Shown one piece after another: positions 1 through 1,949 of a stretch of DNA of 1,949 nucleotides. Within the stretch, counting starts at the first letter, position 1. Every line of letters begins with the position of its first letter. The stretch is from Escherichia phage vB_EcoP-CC2. Location: the sequence record OX638291.1. The stretch is one strand, 5' to 3'. A program made the translations under genes and the position numbers. The notes beneath the pieces were generated by a model. That model was not told the origin of the DNA. It searched no databases and saw nothing but the letters and a program-made list of their open reading frames with translations.

Positions 1-127
1 ATTGGATCGTCCTTAAACTAACACCGAAATAATCAGCTAAGAATTTTTGGTCACATACAACAGCCCCACACGATTTATCTATATTTTGAGCAAAAAAAGA
101 ATATAGCCTAAATGCTCTGGGAACCTT
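1..127. repeat. Terminal direct repeat, left copy (identical to 1823..1949); consistent with a circular molecule or tandem multimer of period 1,822 bp
   Basis: Base-by-base comparison: 1..127 and 1823..1949 are identical over all 127 bp and both run to the window edges. A minus-strand reading frame continues in phase across the implied junction. Confidence 0.95.
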
Positions 128-289
128 CTCAGATATAGAGTCCAACATATTCCAGCCCGCCTTAGTAACCTGCGACCAGTCAGGTGGATTCAACCGATCT
201 CGTTTTTGCTTAGCACTTTTGGATTGATCTTGTGCCTGATGATCTCGCCGTTTTTGCTGTTCGAAATCTTCAAATTGCTGTTCCAGCAT
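1..289 (-). CDS. N-terminal part of the same junction-spanning gene (window-start copy); likely start ATG at 287..289; 1..127 duplicates 1823..1949
   Basis: Minus-strand frame with codons 287..289 down to 2..4 is open and in phase with 1947..1949 across the 1,822-bp period. ATG at 287..289 is preceded on the minus strand by 'AGGTAAGGATGCAAGT' (AAGGA Shine-Dalgarno-like, about 7 nt spacing). Unique part 128..289 encodes MLEQQFEDFEQQKRRDHQAQDQSKSAKQKRDRLNPPDWSQVTKAGWNMLDSISE. Joined product is about 177 aa. An alternative start at ATG 146..148 would give about 131 aa. Confidence 0.5.
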   Translation of the reverse strand, partial: MLEQQFEDFEQQKRRDHQAQDQSKSAKQKRDRLNPPDWSQVTKAGWNMLDSISEKVPRAFRLYSFFAQNIDKSCGAVVCDQKFLADYFGVSLRTIQ

Positions 290-307
290 ACTTGCATCCT
301 TACCTGC

Positions 308-403
308 AACGTTGTTTCGTACCTTACGAAATTTATATCGTACATTACGAAACAACACACGCAAACATGTTTGCGTATACACATGCAAATAACGTTTCGT
401 ATG
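308..403 (-). promoter_or_regulatory. Putative promoter/operator (possibly iteron-type oriV) region upstream of the Rep-like gene
   Basis: Seen directly: two 13-bp palindromic sites 'tcgtaccttacga' (317..329) and 'tcgtacattacga' (338..350), each embedded in a 15-bp direct repeat (317..331 and 338..352, one mismatch) spaced 21 bp apart; perfect 14-bp palindrome 'gcaaacatgtttgc' (361..374); inverted repeat 311..321 with 346..356; 'aacgtttcgta' (391..401) echoing 308..321; 8/9 match to DnaA box TTATNCACA at 375..383 ('gtatacaca'). Minus strand has a 'TATAAAT' -10-like element (complement of about 332..338). No convincing -35 found. Confidence 0.45.
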
Positions 404-409
404 TTGGTG

Positions 410-510
410 TCATAATGCTTTGATTTTTAAGAGAATGTCGATTTTTGCTCTAAAGATCTATCAAAGCACTTTTTTGCTACACAAGATTTAATTAGTTCAT
501 CGAACATTTG
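410..510. other. AT-rich intergenic tract, possible DNA-unwinding element of a vegetative origin
   Basis: Visibly AT-rich non-coding stretch between the repeat/operator cluster and the GC-rich module; contains two of four copies of the octamer 'tttttgct' (443..450, 471..478; others at 203..210 and 251..258). Functional role is inference only. Confidence 0.3.
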
Positions 511-600
511 GGGTGTCGGGGCGAAGCCCTGACCCAGTCACGTAGCGATAGCGGAGTGTATACTGGCTTACTCTTCTGCAAGCCTCTTCAGCCGTGATTT
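511..600. other. ColE1/pMB1-type bom (oriT)-like region with a candidate nic motif
   Basis: 'gggtgtcggggcgaagccctgacccagtcacgtagcgatagcggagtgtatactggcttact' closely resembles, from memory, the pBR322/ColE1 bom segment '...gggtgtcggggcgcagccatgacccagtcacgtagcgatagcggagtgtatactggcttaact...'. By analogy the nick would fall in 'ctgg/ctta' (about 566/567). Not verified by alignment. Confidence 0.5.
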
Positions 601-705
601 TGCCCGATTTCGCGCTCTCCACGTTCAACAGCTCGATCATGTTTTTGCAGTCCGTTCACCGCTAAAACGCCCCGCATCAGTGCGTACGTGCTCAATGTGG
701 TTTCC

Positions 706-772
706 GGTTCTCTTCCGCTTCCTCGCCCACTCGCTCACTAACGTTCGGTCGCTGGGGCTGCGGCGAGCGGTG
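706..772. other. Segment resembling the ColE1 primosome assembly site (pas/ssi) downstream of the ColE1 origin
   Basis: 'tctcttccgcttcctcgcccactcgctcactaacgttcggtcgctggggctgcggcgagcgg' parallels the pBR322/pUC backbone motif 'ctcttccgcttcctcgctcactgactcgctgcgctcggtcgttcggctgcggcgagcgg' (recalled). Functional assignment as a pas site is from general knowledge of ColE1 and is uncertain here. Confidence 0.35.
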
Positions 773-833
773 CCACCTCTCGCATGTTATCGGTGATTCC
801 GCTGTTGTTCTTTCGGGGATGAGTCGCCAGATA

Positions 834-864
834 GCTCTTCAAACGCTCTCAGAAGCTCTCAGAC
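834..864. repeat. Three tandem imperfect copies of a 10-11 bp unit (gctcttcaaac / gctctcagaa / gctctcagac)
   Basis: Read directly from the sequence; unit length is near one helical turn. Function unknown. Confidence 0.4.
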
Positions 865-1075
865 GCACGAAACGGGTTTTAAATGCCCATCAGGGCATGG
901 AAGGCGCGAAAAACGCTTACAGAGGGTTTTAGGAGGTCAGGCGCGCCGATACCCCTAACCAGGGGATTTCAGGTCGCCAGGAACCGCGTCAGCCCCCTGC
1001 AAAGCCCATTTGCACGGAATAGGCAGCCATGCGGTTGGTAGGTGGTCGTAGACCGTCGATGTTACAGCGACGGGG

Positions 1076-1130
1076 GTCTGGGGTTCTCCCCAGACGGTTT
1101 CCGGTTGCGCTCAAGGCGCTGCCGGAACCG
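1076..1130. other. Two adjacent GC-rich stem-loops (possible ssDNA or RNA structural element)
   Basis: Perfect 8-bp stem 'gtctgggg' (1076..1083) / 'ccccagac' (1088..1095) with loop 'ttct'; then an imperfect extended hairpin with arms 'cggtttccgg' (1095..1104) / 'ccggaaccg' (1122..1130) and inner 'gcgc'/'gcgc' stem. No U-tract follows on either strand, so not a canonical intrinsic terminator. Confidence 0.35.
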
Positions 1131-1277
1131 TGGCGGCTCGGTCGTTCTGGAAAACGGGGAGCAAAAAGACGCAAGGGATTTTGAGGCGGCAAAAGAGCAA
1201 TGCAGGATAGACAATCAACTAGAAATTGCATGCAATGTTCTGTGGATTGTCCGCCTACCGCTGGCTCTGTATGGCCA

Positions 1278-1565
1278 TCACTTTTTTCGATATTTATCTA
1301 ACTCAATTACAGGTGCAGGAATTTTTTTCTTCACACTTTTTTTTGGTTTTTGTATTTTTTCATTGTTGCTAACGACAAACATAATTTTCTTTCCATCTTC
1401 ATTGACAATATCAACGGGATTAAACTCCTTATCTTCACAATTCATATATAGATTTATTCCCATTGCATATTCGATATGATATTCATCAATTAACGAATCT
1501 ATTGATCTACATATTTCTAATTTTAGTTCTTCTAATTTCCAACGTGATTCATATTTAACTCTCAT
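1278..1565 (-). CDS. Hypothetical small protein (95 aa), function unknown; immediately downstream of the Rep-like gene on the same strand
   Basis: ORF track 1278..1565 (-), ATG start, TGA stop. Only 12 nt (1566..1577) separate it from the upstream stop, suggesting co-transcription or translational coupling. Weak SD-like 'TAGGT' about 9 nt upstream. Mixed acidic N-terminal half and Lys-rich C-terminal tail (KIQKPKKSVKKK...KYRKK). AT-rich like the upstream gene. I do not recognise the sequence. Confidence 0.5.
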   Translation of the reverse strand: MRVKYESRWKLEELKLEICRSIDSLIDEYHIEYAMGINLYMNCEDKEFNPVDIVNEDGKKIMFVVSNNEKIQKPKKSVKKKIPAPVIELDKYRKK

Positions 1566-1577
1566 AGCGCATCATAC

Positions 1578-1949
1578 CTAGTCCAAGTCATGATTAGATG
1601 TCTTAAGCGAGCCTTCAAACTCTTCTCTCCTAGAGAGCATGAGCCGCAACTTGCGATCAATAACGCCATCTTTTTGAGTTAATGTTTTTGCGTTAAACGC
1701 TGCATATTTTTTAGATTTATTATATCCGCGCCATACCTGATACGGATCTAACGCATAAGCATAATAGATACCTACTGGTATTTTCACGATGGCACCAATA
1801 CTTTCTAAATCTCCAATCCAATATTGGATCGTCCTTAAACTAACACCGAAATAATCAGCTAAGAATTTTTGGTCACATACAACAGCCCCACACGATTTAT
1901 CTATATTTTGAGCAAAAAAAGAATATAGCCTAAATGCTCTGGGAACCTT
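1578..1949 (-). CDS. C-terminal part of a junction-spanning gene for a putative replication-initiator-like HTH protein; 5' end truncated by the window edge and continues in 128..289
   Basis: The listed ORF 1578..1787 begins at an internal GTG; the same frame stays open upstream to the window end (manual translation ...KVPRAFRLYSFFAQNIDKSCGAVVCDQKFLADYFGVSLRTIQYWIGDLESIGAI-VKIPVGIYY...HDLD, stop TAG at 1578..1580). The motif 'QKFLADYFGVSLRTIQYWIGDLESIGAI' has the pattern of a (winged) helix-turn-helix as found in small plasmid/phage Rep proteins. Family assignment is inference; no search was run. Confidence 0.6.
   Translation of the reverse strand, partial: KVPRAFRLYSFFAQNIDKSCGAVVCDQKFLADYFGVSLRTIQYWIGDLESIGAIVKIPVGIYYAYALDPYQVWRGYNKSKKYAAFNAKTLTQKDGVIDRKLRLMLSRREEFEGSLKTSNHDLD
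1823..1949. repeat. Terminal direct repeat, right copy (identical to 1..127)
   Basis: Same comparison as for the left copy; offset between copies is exactly 1,822 bp. Confidence 0.95.

What the first reader, a model, noticed from the sequence alone, without database searches (positions are those of the whole stretch)
1..1949. Window is a complete small circular replicon of about 1.8 kb, read through its junction
A 127-bp exact terminal redundancy (1..127 = 1823..1949) reaches both window edges, and a minus-strand ORF is in phase across the implied junction, reconstituting one intact gene. This points to a 1,822-bp circle (or head-to-tail multimer) rather than a linear locus with flanking repeats. 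Replicons this small with a protein initiator plus ColE1-like cis sites are worth classifying.
Basis: seen in the sequence. Interest (0 to 1): 0.6.

Follow-up and report, generated by a model that had tools for sequence, protein, structure and literature searches.

The report
Known 1.8-kb E. coli cryptic plasmid

Summary
In detail: 1-127 equals 1823-1949 exactly, and a minus-strand ORF closes in frame across the junction. The 1,822-bp unit matches at least 18 complete circular plasmid records of exactly 1,822 bp at 99.2-100% identity, all typed Col(MG828). Three independent assemblies give the identical circle with a 30-nt overlap at other break points. No chromosomal copy exists in 5,426 complete E. 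coli genomes. The redundancy is therefore an assembler artefact of a circle.

The plasmid has two parts.

- **Rep module:** a 177-aa winged-helix initiator annotated RepL, which is 42% identical to the studied RepA of pKL1. Upstream lie its own inverted-repeat sites, and downstream a conserved 95-aa gene of unknown function.
- **Non-coding block (507-1275):** GC-rich and shared at 90-95% identity with pKL1, pKST21-like and hundreds of other mini-plasmids. It carries a ColE1-type bom/nic site, a ColE1-type primosome-assembly-like site and an almost invariant triple hairpin.

There is no RNAI/RNAII, rop or mob gene, so this is not a ColE1 replicon.

Mechanism (inferred): Rep-dependent initiation upstream of repL. 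The block supplies lagging-strand priming and mobilisation in trans.

Novelty: already known. Interest: low.

The parts
1..127 (.). Left copy of the terminal redundancy. This is an assembler overlap of a circular path, not a biological repeat. It lies inside repL.
   Evidence: Exact identity with 1823-1949. Other assemblies of the identical circle have 30-nt overlaps at other break points.
1823..1949 (.). Right copy of the terminal redundancy, identical to 1-127.
1..289 (-). repL, 5' part: ATG at 289-287, covering codons 1-96 plus one base. An AAGGA Shine-Dalgarno sequence sits at 301-297.
   Evidence: Circular ORF search. PGAP annotates the same 177-aa protein, WP_000893324.1, in the identical record. 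The Shine-Dalgarno sequence was read from the sequence.
1578..1822 (-). repL, 3' part, running through to the stop codon at 1580-1578. Within the window the contiguous reading 1949->1578 gives residues 55-177. It includes the winged-HTH core.
   Evidence: Pfam RepL PF05732 scores 22.6 bits against a cutoff of 20.3. The protein is 42% identical to pKL1 RepA with E = 4e-41. The AlphaFold core has pLDDT 87-94, and Foldseek finds MarR/ArsR-type wHTH folds. dN/dS against pMG828-1 is 0.017.
1278..1565 (-). orf95: a conserved 95-aa protein of unknown function with a Lys-rich C-terminal tail. It starts 12 nt after the repL stop. At 27-29% GC it is the most AT-rich part of the plasmid.
   Evidence: ORF list. 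56 homologues, mostly 95 aa and 69-96% identical. dN/dS is 0.28. No match in Pfam, NCBIfam, PHROGs or PADLOC. Only 17 hits among 1.84 billion representatives. GC content.
290..506 (-). repL upstream control region and presumptive Rep-dependent origin. It holds two palindromic units TTTCGTAnnnTACGAAA 21 bp apart (312-352), a perfect 18-nt palindrome (359-376), an extra half-site (394-401), a promoter-like -10 (417-412) and -35 (441-436), one exact IHF consensus (413-425) and an AT-rich stretch (about 415-500, 35% GC).
   Evidence: pKL1 has the same layout, and its oriV, IHF box and Rep-binding sites are reported upstream of rep (PMC3832669). The repeat motif changes with the Rep variant. The function here is inferred.
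507..585 (+). ColE1-type bom/oriT-like site. It contains the nic-region core GTGTATACTGGCTTA and the left arm GGGTGTCGGGGCGAAGCCCTGACCC.
   Evidence: The 511-570 stretch matches at 95-100% in roughly 2,000 plasmid records, most typed mobilizable. It is 88% identical to the segment just downstream of rop in the ColE1-type plasmid L010.
659..671 (.). Deletion scar and indel hot spot. All relatives carry about 80 extra bp here, including an inverted copy of the 25-nt bom left arm. One copy in a dimer-length record lacks 659-671.
   Evidence: Alignment. BLAST break points.
682..775 (+). ColE1-type primosome-assembly-site-like (pas) segment, CTCTTCCGCTTCCTCGCCCACTCGC...GCGGCGAGCGG.
   Evidence: 88% identity over 92 nt to the ColE1-type plasmid L010, in the same order rop-bom-pas. 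The 710-772 stretch is 98% identical in other ColE1-type plasmids. The identification as the pBR322/ColE1 n'-pas comes from my own knowledge. The ssDNA fold is not unusually stable (z = 0.7 and -0.4).
776..1209 (+). Rest of the conserved GC-rich (55-64%) non-coding block. It has no similarity to ColE1 RNAII/ori. The sub-segment 792-930 also occurs in IncX4 and IncX1 plasmids.
   Evidence: 815 plasmid records carry it, 410 of them over at least 80% of its length. There are no RNAI/RNAII matches. IncX context. ORFs across it are not conserved between relatives. GC content.
1053..1129 (+). Three tandem hairpins (1053-1073, 1076-1095, 1096-1129). This is the most conserved part of the block and a candidate single-strand initiation signal.
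   Evidence: ssDNA fold z = -4.8 on either strand, with 0 of 200 shuffles as stable. 643 plasmid records carry it. 22 of 28 pairs are invariant and 97.9% of cells are paired, but covariation is not informative. The inner part of hairpin 3 is exactly flipped in L018.
1210..1251 (.). Palindrome at the end of the block. It has a conserved outer stem GACAATC/GATTGTC and an inner palindrome (here ATTGCATGCAAT) that differs between plasmids independently of Rep type.
   Evidence: Fold z = -2.3.
1262..1277 (+). Terminator-like hairpin followed by a T-run, next to the orf95 stop codon. Positions 1267-1274 are where a 6.7-kb strA/strB transposon sits in pER24y-8ksm.

Best explanation
The window is a short-read contig of an E. 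coli isolate that spells out one complete 1,822-bp circular cryptic plasmid plus a 127-nt overlap left by the assembler (127 is a common largest k-mer). The plasmid belongs to the already described Col(MG828) group (pMG828-1, pKL1, pKST21 relatives).

It is built from two modules.

Module 1 (1278-1822 plus 1-506) is the replicon proper. It holds a 177-aa winged-helix initiator of the pKL1-RepA / peripheral RepL family, its promoter, and Rep-specific inverted repeats next to an AT-rich stretch. A small co-transcribed gene, orf95, follows.

Module 2 (507-1275) is a portable non-coding cassette shared with hundreds of other mini-plasmids. It contains a ColE1-type bom/nic site, a ColE1-type pas-like site and a triple hairpin.

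Proposed mechanism:
- Rep dimers or oligomers bind the TTTCGTAnnnTACGAAA units. This represses repL and, with IHF, opens the adjacent AT-rich DNA to start replication.
- Host primosome factors then prime the other strand at the pas and hairpin signals of the cassette.
- The bom site lets a co-resident ColE1-type relaxase together with a conjugative plasmid mobilise the plasmid in trans.

Shown here: the circle, the family membership, the homologies, the conservation and the architecture.

Inferred: Rep binding to the repeats, the position of the origin, the priming role of the block, and mobilisation. I put theta-type initiation at about 0.5 and rolling-circle at about 0.35. The function of orf95 is unknown; a Rep-accessory or copy-control role is a guess.
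For: Circle:
- Exact 127-nt redundancy and an in-frame junction ORF.
- At least 18 circular records of exactly 1,822 bp at 99.2-100% identity, with other linearisation points.
- Logan contigs of 1,852 bp with 30-nt overlaps and zero mismatches, and scaffolds with an exact period of 1822.
- 37 of 37 places on plasmids in complete E. coli genomes.
- The window's own partial proteins map to a 1,949-bp NCBI E. coli contig.

Family:
- MOB-suite typing is Col(MG828).
- 88.7% identity to pMG828-1 over the full length.
- pKL1 shares the block at 90-92% and is also typed Col(MG828).

Initiator:
- Pfam RepL 22.6 bits against a 20.3 cutoff.
- 42% identity and E = 4e-41 to pKL1 RepA WP_000469298.1.
- Confident wHTH core and MarR/ArsR-like fold matches.
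- dN/dS 0.017.

Origin/operator:
- Repeats, promoter-like site and IHF consensus.
- Each Rep variant has its own repeat motif at the same place.
- pKL1's oriV with an IHF box and Rep sites is reported upstream of rep (PMC3832669).

Cassette:
- bom and pas-like alignments to ColE1-type plasmids in the native order.
- The block is present in 815 records.
- Triple hairpin z = -4.8 and near-invariance.
- In the related pHW126 family an ssi element is dispensable but stabilising (preprint 10.1101/2022.12.05.519187).
- A 6.7-kb transposon is tolerated between the modules.
Against: - The Pfam RepL match is marginal and partial (profile positions 57-136 of 164). pKL1 RepA itself scores below the cutoff at 17.7 bits.
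- The pas-like segment does not fold more stably than shuffles.
- Hairpin covariation is uninformative: 224 of 500 shuffles do as well.
- No exact DnaA box is present.
- A single IHF consensus is weak evidence, since 29 of 200 shuffles have one.
- MOB-suite calls the 1,822- and 1,902-bp forms non-mobilizable. The 1,822 form has also lost the inverted partner of the bom left arm, so mobilisation may be impaired.
- The replication mode (theta or rolling circle) cannot be decided from sequence.
Confidence: 0.9

Rival explanations
1. The two 127-nt copies are separate direct repeats of a linear locus, for example a duplication or an element integrated in a chromosome or larger plasmid, and the circle is an illusion.
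For: Within the window alone the repeat reaches both edges, so outer flanks cannot be seen. The backbone does occur inside larger records such as the 8,531-bp pER24y-8ksm and a 7,475-bp plasmid.
Against: Many closed 1,822-bp circular records are linearised elsewhere. Other assemblers give a 30-nt overlap instead of 127, at different break points, with zero mismatches. No chromosomal place was found in 5,426 genomes. The larger records are the same circle with a transposon inserted at 1267-1274, not a flanked integration.
Confidence: 0.01
2. In the cell the molecule is mainly a head-to-tail multimer (dimer or higher) of the 1,822-bp unit rather than a monomer.
For: A 3,631-bp circular record is a dimer whose two copies differ by 12 substitutions and a 13-bp deletion, so it is not a simple assembly duplication. 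Metagenome scaffolds read through more than one unit. No cer-like XerCD site was recognised by eye. Loss of ssi causes multimerisation in the pHW126 family.
Against: Most closed records are monomer length. Read-through scaffolds are what assemblers produce from any circle. A short-read contig cannot distinguish a monomer from a multimer.
Confidence: 0.1
3. The plasmid replicates by a rolling circle. Rep nicks at or near the upstream repeats, the repL-sense strand is displaced, and the 507-1275 block acts as the single-strand origin on which PriA or primase converts ssDNA to dsDNA.
For: The Rep matches Pfam RepL, the initiator family of the pSN2 group, which is classed as rolling-circle (PMC5703833). 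The distantly related pHW126-type Reps nick DNA and give sigma intermediates. A large, orientation-fixed, highly structured non-coding block is what a single-strand origin looks like. The block has the same orientation relative to rep in every relative examined.
Against: No HUH or other nuclease fold or motif was found, only a wHTH. The closest studied homologue, pKL1 RepA, is described with an IHF box and multiple Rep-binding sites in oriV, and with hexamerisation, which reads like a theta-type initiator. pIGMS31 shows both modes. Nothing here tests for ssDNA intermediates.
Confidence: 0.35
4. The GC-rich block is the true origin, either a diverged ColE1-like RNA-primed origin or another host-factor-driven origin. 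The wHTH protein would then be only a regulator or accessory factor.
For: The block is the only part common to plasmids with at least two unrelated-looking wHTH Reps. Replicon typing as Col(MG828) follows the block rather than the rep gene. In ColE1 the origin lies about 120 nt beyond pas on the same side as the 776-1275 segment (my own knowledge of the pBR322 map). The block makes up 42% of the plasmid.
Against: There is no RNAI match in Rfam even at E <= 1. No similarity exists beyond bom and pas to a ColE1-type plasmid. No promoter-like sites fall in the block. A distant BLAST finds 815 records, not the many thousands of ColE1-type origins. Every carrier examined also has a wHTH rep gene with its own cognate repeats. 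repL is under very strong purifying selection.
Confidence: 0.07

Closest known systems
pMG828-1 (NC_008486.1, 1,902 bp), reference of the PlasmidFinder/MOB-suite replicon type Col(MG828)
   Same: Colinear over 100% of the unit at 88.7% identity. It has the same repL and orf95 genes, the same upstream repeats and the same block.
   Different: The window's form lacks about 80 bp between 665 and 671, including the inverted copy of the bom left arm. It also has a different inner palindrome at the end of the block.
pKL1 (NC_002145.1, 1,549 bp), with RepA studied by Burian and co-workers
   Same: The Rep proteins are homologous: 42% identity over 156 aa, E = 4e-41. The block is shared at 90-92% in the same orientation relative to rep. 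Both have inverted-repeat Rep sites between promoter and start codon. It is also typed Col(MG828).
   Different: pKL1 has no orf95. Its repeat motif is different (TGTCGCATCCAGGATGCGACA). pKL1 RepA scores below the Pfam RepL cutoff.
pKST21-like plasmids (about 1,459 bp, e.g. NZ_CP008721.1); pKST21 was described as a mosaic plasmid with two rep genes
   Same: They share 507-1271 at about 95%, including the same inner palindrome at the block end. They carry the same Col(MG828) typing.
   Different: The Rep is a different 146-aa MarR-like wHTH protein, and there is no orf95. The pKST21 paper could not be read.
ColE1 / pBR322-type plasmids
   Same: The bom/nic region and pas-like segment are present in the same order and orientation as downstream of rop.
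   Different: There is no RNAII/RNAI, no rop and no mbe/mob genes. Replication depends on a plasmid-encoded protein instead.
pSN2-family RepL plasmids of Firmicutes (Pfam PF05732)
   Same: The initiator is a small (about 18-20 kDa) HTH protein on very small cryptic plasmids, with a second small basic ORF often present (PMC5703833).
   Different: The HMM match is marginal and partial, the hosts are enterobacteria, and no dso or ssoA similarity was tested.
pHW126-like plasmids (pHW126, pIGRK, pIGMS31)
   Same: They are small gammaproteobacterial plasmids with a wHTH Rep said to be distantly related to RepL, an autoregulated rep, iterons or inverted repeats, and an ssi element.
   Different: No direct sequence comparison was made here. 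Those plasmids carry their own MOB modules.

Membership tests
Col(MG828) replicon group (pMG828-1-like plasmids) | Nucleotide similarity to the reference plasmid or probe, and typing as Col(MG828) | tested here: met
   The unit is 88.7% identical over 100% of its length to NC_008486.1. The 100%-identical record NZ_CP090002.1 and pH1519-2 are typed Col(MG828) by MOB-suite.
Col(MG828) replicon group (pMG828-1-like plasmids) | Same gene content and order (repL, orf95, non-coding block) | tested here: met
   The orf95 orthologue in pMG828-1 is 82% identical.
pKL1 RepA-type initiator plasmids | Rep protein homologous to pKL1 RepA | tested here: met
   BLASTP gives 42% identity over 156 aa with E = 4e-41 against WP_000469298.1, which is the CDS of pKL1 NC_002145.1.
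pKL1 RepA-type initiator plasmids | oriV/operator with Rep-binding inverted repeats and an IHF box upstream of rep | tested here: inconclusive
   Inverted repeats lie at the analogous position and co-vary with the Rep type. There is one exact IHF consensus at 413-425, where 0.15 is expected by chance. Binding was not tested.
pKL1 RepA-type initiator plasmids | RepA oligomerises (hexamer) and autoregulates | not testable with these tools
   This needs biochemistry. It is known for pKL1 only from the literature cited in PMC3832669.
Pfam RepL (PF05732; pSN2-type initiators) | HMM score at or above the gathering threshold | tested here: met
   22.6 bits against a 20.3 cutoff, E = 8e-5, but only profile positions 57-136 of 164 are matched. 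Relatives score 15.8-26.9 bits, so the family straddles the cutoff.
Pfam RepL (PF05732; pSN2-type initiators) | Rolling-circle replication with a dso and ssoA | not testable with these tools
No comparison with the pSN2 dso or ssoA was made.
ColE1-type replicon | RNAII primer with RNAI antisense control | tested here: not met
   Rfam at E <= 1 gives no RNAI or related match. There is no similarity to the RNAII/ori region of the ColE1-type plasmid L010.
ColE1-type replicon | rop gene and mbe/mob genes | tested here: not met
   Only repL and orf95 are conserved ORFs.
ColE1-type replicon | bom (oriT/nic) site and primosome assembly site | tested here: met
   The similarity is at the sequence level only. 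Positions 511-585 and 682-772 align at 88% in the native order, and 511-570 matches about 2,000 plasmids at 95-100%. Function was not tested.
Phage P1 RepL (lytic replicon) | Protein similarity to P1 RepL | tested here: not met
   tblastn against 50,697 phage records at E <= 0.01 gives 4 hits, none of them P1-like.

The most novel reading that the evidence does not exclude
The 770-bp non-coding block (507-1275) may be an uncharacterised, portable maintenance cassette that mini-plasmids with different winged-helix initiators exchange by recombination. Its almost invariant triple hairpin (1053-1129) would be a new type of single-strand initiation or priming signal rather than a copy of the known ColE1, phiX174 or G4 signals. 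The orf95 family, which recurs directly behind small wHTH rep genes, would be a new Rep-accessory or copy-control protein.
Probability: 0.25. Interest if true: 0.4.

Novelty: already known. Interest (0 to 1): 0.15.

Why it matters
It matters little for discovery. The plasmid has been deposited dozens of times and belongs to a named replicon type with described relatives.

The practical value is threefold:
- It shows that a terminal redundancy equal to the assembler's k, together with an ORF that closes in frame, is a reliable signature of a complete circular replicon.
- It shows that the label Col(MG828) follows a shared non-coding block rather than the initiator gene. Typing therefore lumps together plasmids with different Rep proteins, which may be compatible with one another.
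- These 1.5-1.9-kb plasmids are minimal natural replicons. About 40% of each is a conserved non-coding cassette whose function has not, as far as I could find, been dissected, and this could be tested cheaply.

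Tried and rejected
- **Rfam, all families at E <= 1.** Only chance-level hits appeared (RAGATH-7 at 19 bits against a gathering score of 112, and REN-SRE). No RNAI was found.
- **Sensitive BLAST of the block against a ColE1-type plasmid.** Nothing aligned beyond bom and pas. A few 11-14-mers, such as GCCAGGAAC, are chance-level.
- **AlphaFold of orf95.** The model has pLDDT 48 and is unusable, so no fold search was run on it.
- **Family scans for orf95.** Pfam, NCBIfam, PHROGs and PADLOC found nothing.
- **PDB profile search with the Rep alignment.** It returned only generic HTH fragments (terminase small subunit) at E about 0.01.
- **Covariation test of the triple hairpin.** Uninformative, because the pairs hardly vary.
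- **DnaA-box scan.** No exact box, and one-mismatch hits are at the chance level.
- **ssDNA folding of the bom, pas-like and 790-935 segments.** None is more stable than shuffled sequence.
- **cer-like XerCD site.** I looked for one by eye around 680-700 and rejected it, because the XerD arm does not match.
- **Long ORFs in the GC-rich block** (80 aa on the minus strand at 989-1231, 145 aa on the plus strand at 1042-1479). Rejected as genes: they have no family and their frames are not conserved in relatives.
- **Papers on pKST21 and pKST23.** Not held in the library.

Full report
**1. Observation**

The window is 1,949 nt, and positions 1-127 are identical to 1823-1949 with a spacing of 1,822. 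Joining the ends gives one uninterrupted minus-strand ORF. It runs from ATG 289 down through position 1 and continues from 1822 to a stop at 1578. It is 177 aa from that ATG, or 210 aa from an upstream TTG.

**2. Is it a circle?**

The 1,822-bp unit was compared with 72,556 plasmid records.
- At least 18 complete circular records are exactly 1,822 bp long and 99.2-100% identical. They come from E. coli, Shigella and, in one case, a record labelled S. aureus.
- These records are linearised at other positions, so the window's junction lies in their interior and repL is annotated there as one contiguous 534-nt gene.

Looking up contigs that encode exactly the window's 95-aa protein gave further independent support.
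- Three independent Logan contigs are each 1,852 bp, broken at different points and ending in a 30-nt overlap. Their 1,822-bp units have zero mismatches to the window unit.
- Two metagenome scaffolds read on for 1,301 and 2,065 nt with an exact period of 1822.

The length of the redundancy therefore follows the assembler: 127 is a usual largest k of short-read assemblers, and 30 is k-1 for k = 31 (my own knowledge of assemblers). It is not a feature of the DNA.

In 5,426 complete E. coli genomes the rep module occurs in 31 genomes at 37 places, all on plasmids and none on a chromosome. The window's own truncated proteins are on record from a 1,949-bp NCBI E. coli contig, which is evidently this window.

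The alternative of a linear locus with flanking repeats is refuted. A multimeric physical state cannot be excluded from a contig. One 3,631-bp record is a true heterodimer, with 12 substitutions and a 13-bp deletion between its copies.

**3. What it is**

The identical and near-identical records are typed Col(MG828). The type plasmid pMG828-1 (1,902 bp) is colinear at 88.7%.

[quoted passage not shown] The primary papers on pKST21 and pKST23 were not available.

Composition splits the plasmid in two. An AT-rich part (27-47% GC) holds the genes, and a GC-rich part (55-64%) runs from about 507 to 1275.

**4. The rep module**

*The initiator.*
- The junction ORF matches Pfam RepL (PF05732) just above threshold: 22.6 bits against 20.3, covering profile positions 57-136 of 164. 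NCBI annotates it 'replication/maintenance protein RepL'.
- More informative is its homology to the only protein of pKL1: 42% identity over 156 aa, E = 4e-41. I verified that this protein, WP_000469298.1, is the CDS of the original pKL1 record NC_002145.1.
- An AlphaFold model has a confident core (pLDDT 87-94 for residues about 80-150) and floppy termini. Foldseek finds MarR/ArsR-type winged-helix proteins at weak E-values (5e-3 and above) and no nuclease fold.
- Against pMG828-1, dN/dS is 0.017.
- tblastn finds relatives in 626 plasmid records. Of these, 586 are below 60% identity, mostly the 1.5-kb pKL1 type.
- No phage P1 record matches, so the shared name with P1 RepL does not reflect detectable homology.

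*The upstream region (290-506, read on the minus strand).* In order, it contains:
- an AT-rich stretch;
- a promoter-like site (-35 at 441-436, -10 at 417-412), overlapped by the only exact IHF consensus in the window (413-425);
- a half-site TACGAAAC;
- a perfect 18-nt palindrome;
- two palindromic units TTTCGTAnnnTACGAAA spaced 21 bp apart;
- a good Shine-Dalgarno sequence (AAGGA, 7 nt before the ATG).

pKL1 has the same layout with a different motif, TGTCGCATCC-AGGATGCGACA. Two other RepL-type plasmids have their own motifs: GGTCTATCA five times, and GGTACCTTGNANGCTCA twice. This co-variation of repeat and protein is what cognate binding sites look like. For pKL1 the origin, an IHF box and Rep-binding sites are reported upstream of rep (PMC3832669). 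That Rep binds these repeats and that the origin lies here is an inference for this plasmid.

*orf95 (1565-1278).* It starts 12 nt after the repL stop.
- It is conserved as a 95-aa protein at 69-96% identity in 56 database clusters, nearly all on contigs of about 2 kb. Its dN/dS is 0.28.
- No family library recognises it, and its structure prediction failed (pLDDT 48).
- A profile search of 1.84 billion representatives found only 17 proteins. The remote ones share an N-terminal MR[IV]KFEGRW...G[IV]NLY motif and a Lys-rich tail.
- Of four contexts examined, two place the homologue directly behind a small wHTH rep-like gene (L016, overlapping, and L017). One lies beside traM, oriT and a lytic transglycosylase of a conjugative plasmid, and one lies near parA and an HU gene.
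- A Rep-linked role is therefore a reasonable guess, but nothing more.

**5. The non-coding block (507-1275)**

*Distribution.*
- An alignment with pMG828-1, a pKL1-type plasmid, a 1,603-bp plasmid and a pKST21-like plasmid shows the block is shared at 88-95% identity. The original pKL1 record shares it at 90-92%.
- The rep genes of these plasmids differ. They are pKL1/RepL-type in three cases and a different 146-aa MarR-like wHTH in the pKST21-like plasmid.
- All of them, pKL1 included, are typed Col(MG828). The typing marker evidently lies in the block and not in the initiator.
- Parts of the block occur in 815 plasmid records.
- ORFs that cross it are not conserved between relatives, and no promoter-like site falls in it.

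*Elements within it.*
- **(a) 511-585** is a ColE1-type bom/nic region. The 60-nt core is 95-100% identical in about 2,000 plasmids, most typed mobilizable. In ColE1-type plasmids it lies just downstream of rop, next to the mob genes.
- **(b) 659-671** is an indel hot spot. All relatives carry about 80 more bp here, including an inverted copy of the 25-nt left arm of bom. This accounts for the difference between 1,822 and 1,902 bp.
- **(c) 682-772** aligns at 88% to the segment that follows bom in a ColE1-type plasmid. From my knowledge of pBR322 this is the primosome assembly (n'/PriA) site region. It does not fold unusually well as ssDNA.
- **(d) 776-1209** has no ColE1 similarity. The sub-segment 792-930 also occurs in IncX4 and IncX1 plasmids, in non-coding DNA near a RelE/ParE toxin-antitoxin pair. 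In the IncX4 record it lies about 735 bp upstream of the pir-like rep gene.
- **(e) 1053-1129** forms three adjacent hairpins with z = -4.8 on either strand; 0 of 200 shuffles are as stable. The element is present in 643 records and is almost invariant. For that reason the pair-count test has no power: 22 of 28 pairs never vary, there is one compensatory change, and 224 of 500 shuffles do as well. One plasmid (CP122658.1) has the inner 17 nt of hairpin 3 replaced by its exact reverse complement, which keeps the hairpin.
- **(f) 1210-1251** is a palindrome whose outer stem is conserved and whose inner palindrome differs between plasmids, with no relation to the Rep type.

*Arrangement.* The block has the same orientation relative to rep in every relative examined. 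In two RepL-type plasmids that lack bom, the pas-like element lies about 200 bp upstream of rep.

**6. How it most likely works**

*Shown:* a complete circular plasmid; a strongly constrained wHTH initiator homologous to pKL1 RepA; Rep-variant-specific repeats next to an AT-rich stretch; and a conserved portable cassette with bom-like, pas-like and hairpin elements.

*Inferred:*
- Rep binds the repeats. This autoregulates repL and, with IHF, opens the AT-rich DNA to initiate replication.
- The cassette provides host-dependent priming of the other strand (pas, and possibly the hairpins) and mobilisation in trans through bom. This would make the plasmid comparable to pBR322, which has bom but no mob genes (my own knowledge).

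*Theta or rolling circle?* Sequence cannot decide this.
- The RepL family of pSN2 is classed as rolling-circle but is poorly studied (PMC5703833).
- The distantly related pHW126-type plasmids show both kinds of intermediate, and their ssi is dispensable but stabilising.
- pKL1's description reads like a theta initiator.
- I put theta at about 0.5 and rolling circle at about 0.35.

*Evidence against mobilisation.* MOB-suite calls the 1,822- and 1,902-bp forms non-mobilizable, and the 1,822-bp form has lost the inverted partner of the bom arm.

*Tolerated insertion.* A 6.7-kb strA/strB transposon sits at 1267-1274, between the two modules, in pER24y-8ksm. That position is therefore dispensable, and the backbone can carry resistance genes.

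**7. Comparison with known systems and verdict**

The plasmid is a member of the Col(MG828) group, with colinearity and typing both met. It is a relative of pKL1, with homologous Rep and a shared block. It is a marginal member of Pfam RepL. It is not a ColE1 replicon, because RNAI/RNAII, rop and mob were tested and not found; it only borrows two ColE1-type cis sites.

The finding is correct and well reasoned, but the object is already known, so interest is low.

The least explored aspects are the function of the shared 770-bp cassette, especially its triple hairpin, and of the orf95 family. These form the most novel reading that the evidence leaves open.

Noticed in passing
whole unit; PLSDB record NZ_CP090002.1 (L001): The only 100%-identical database record is labelled 'Staphylococcus aureus strain RN6390 plasmid unnamed'. 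Every other carrier is an enterobacterium, and the plasmid has enterobacterial cis sites. The record is most likely a contaminant or a mislabelled contig in that assembly.
   Followed up: partly
window 507-1275; L005, L006, L007, L035: MOB-suite types pKL1, pKST21-like plasmids and this plasmid all as Col(MG828), although their Rep proteins differ (42% identity, or a different wHTH type). The typing marker evidently lies in the shared non-coding block. The type is therefore not a proxy for initiator identity or incompatibility.
   Followed up: partly
window 659-671: This is an indel hot spot. The 1,822-bp form lacks about 80 bp that pMG828-1, pKL1 and pKST21-like plasmids carry, including an inverted copy of the 25-nt bom left arm. 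One copy in the dimer-length record NZ_CP146569.1 has a further 13-bp deletion (659-671) at the same place.
   Followed up: partly
window 1102-1118; L018 (CP122658.1): In a 2,810-bp colicin-M-like plasmid the inner 17 nt of hairpin 3 (TTGCGCTCAAGGCGCTG) are replaced by their exact reverse complement (CAGCGCCTTGAGCGCAA). This is a hairpin flip between the CCGG arms that preserves the structure.
   Followed up: no
window 1210-1251: The palindrome at the block end has a conserved outer stem (GACAATC/GATTGTC). Its inner palindrome differs between plasmids: ATTGCATGCAAT here and in the pKST21-like plasmid, a GTTAAC-centred one in pMG828-1 and the pKL1-type plasmid, and TCAAATGTTAACATTTGA in the 1,603-bp plasmid. 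The variant is uncorrelated with Rep type, and its function is unknown.
   Followed up: no
window 792-930; L011 (IncX4), L013 (IncX1), L012 (IncF): A segment of about 140 nt of the block also occurs at 75-86% identity in large IncX4 and IncX1 plasmids. In both it lies in non-coding DNA near a RelE/ParE toxin-antitoxin pair; in the IncX4 record it lies between that pair and the pir-like rep gene, about 735 bp upstream of rep. An overlapping stretch occurs in an IncF plasmid. It may be a shared single-strand initiation or other cis signal.
   Followed up: partly
window 1278-1565; L014, L015, L016, L017: Remote homologues of orf95 (88-137 aa, with an MR[IV]KFEGRW...GxNLY motif and a Lys-rich tail) lie directly behind small wHTH rep-like genes in two of the four contexts examined. 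In one case the homologue sits next to traM, oriT and a lytic transglycosylase of a conjugative plasmid. This is a small orphan plasmid protein family.
   Followed up: partly
window 1267-1274; L004 (NC_024968.1, pER24y-8ksm): An 8,531-bp plasmid is this same backbone (99.1-99.4% identity) with a 6.7-kb Tn3-family/IS1133 transposon carrying aph(3'')-Ib and aph(6)-Id. The insertion lies between the end of the block and the orf95 stop, and 8 nt of backbone are duplicated at the joints.
   Followed up: partly
phage collection records OR844798.1 (1,626 bp) and OR844749.1 (1,423 bp): Two records deposited as 'Escherichia phage' are only 1.4-1.6 kb long and encode a pKL1-type Rep (50-57% identity to this RepL). 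They look like mini-plasmids filed as phages.
   Followed up: no
L006 612-737 and several 1,902-bp records: PGAP annotates a 41-aa 'replication protein' inside the pas-like part of the non-coding block in some relatives. The ORF is not conserved across the family and is probably an annotation artefact.
   Followed up: no
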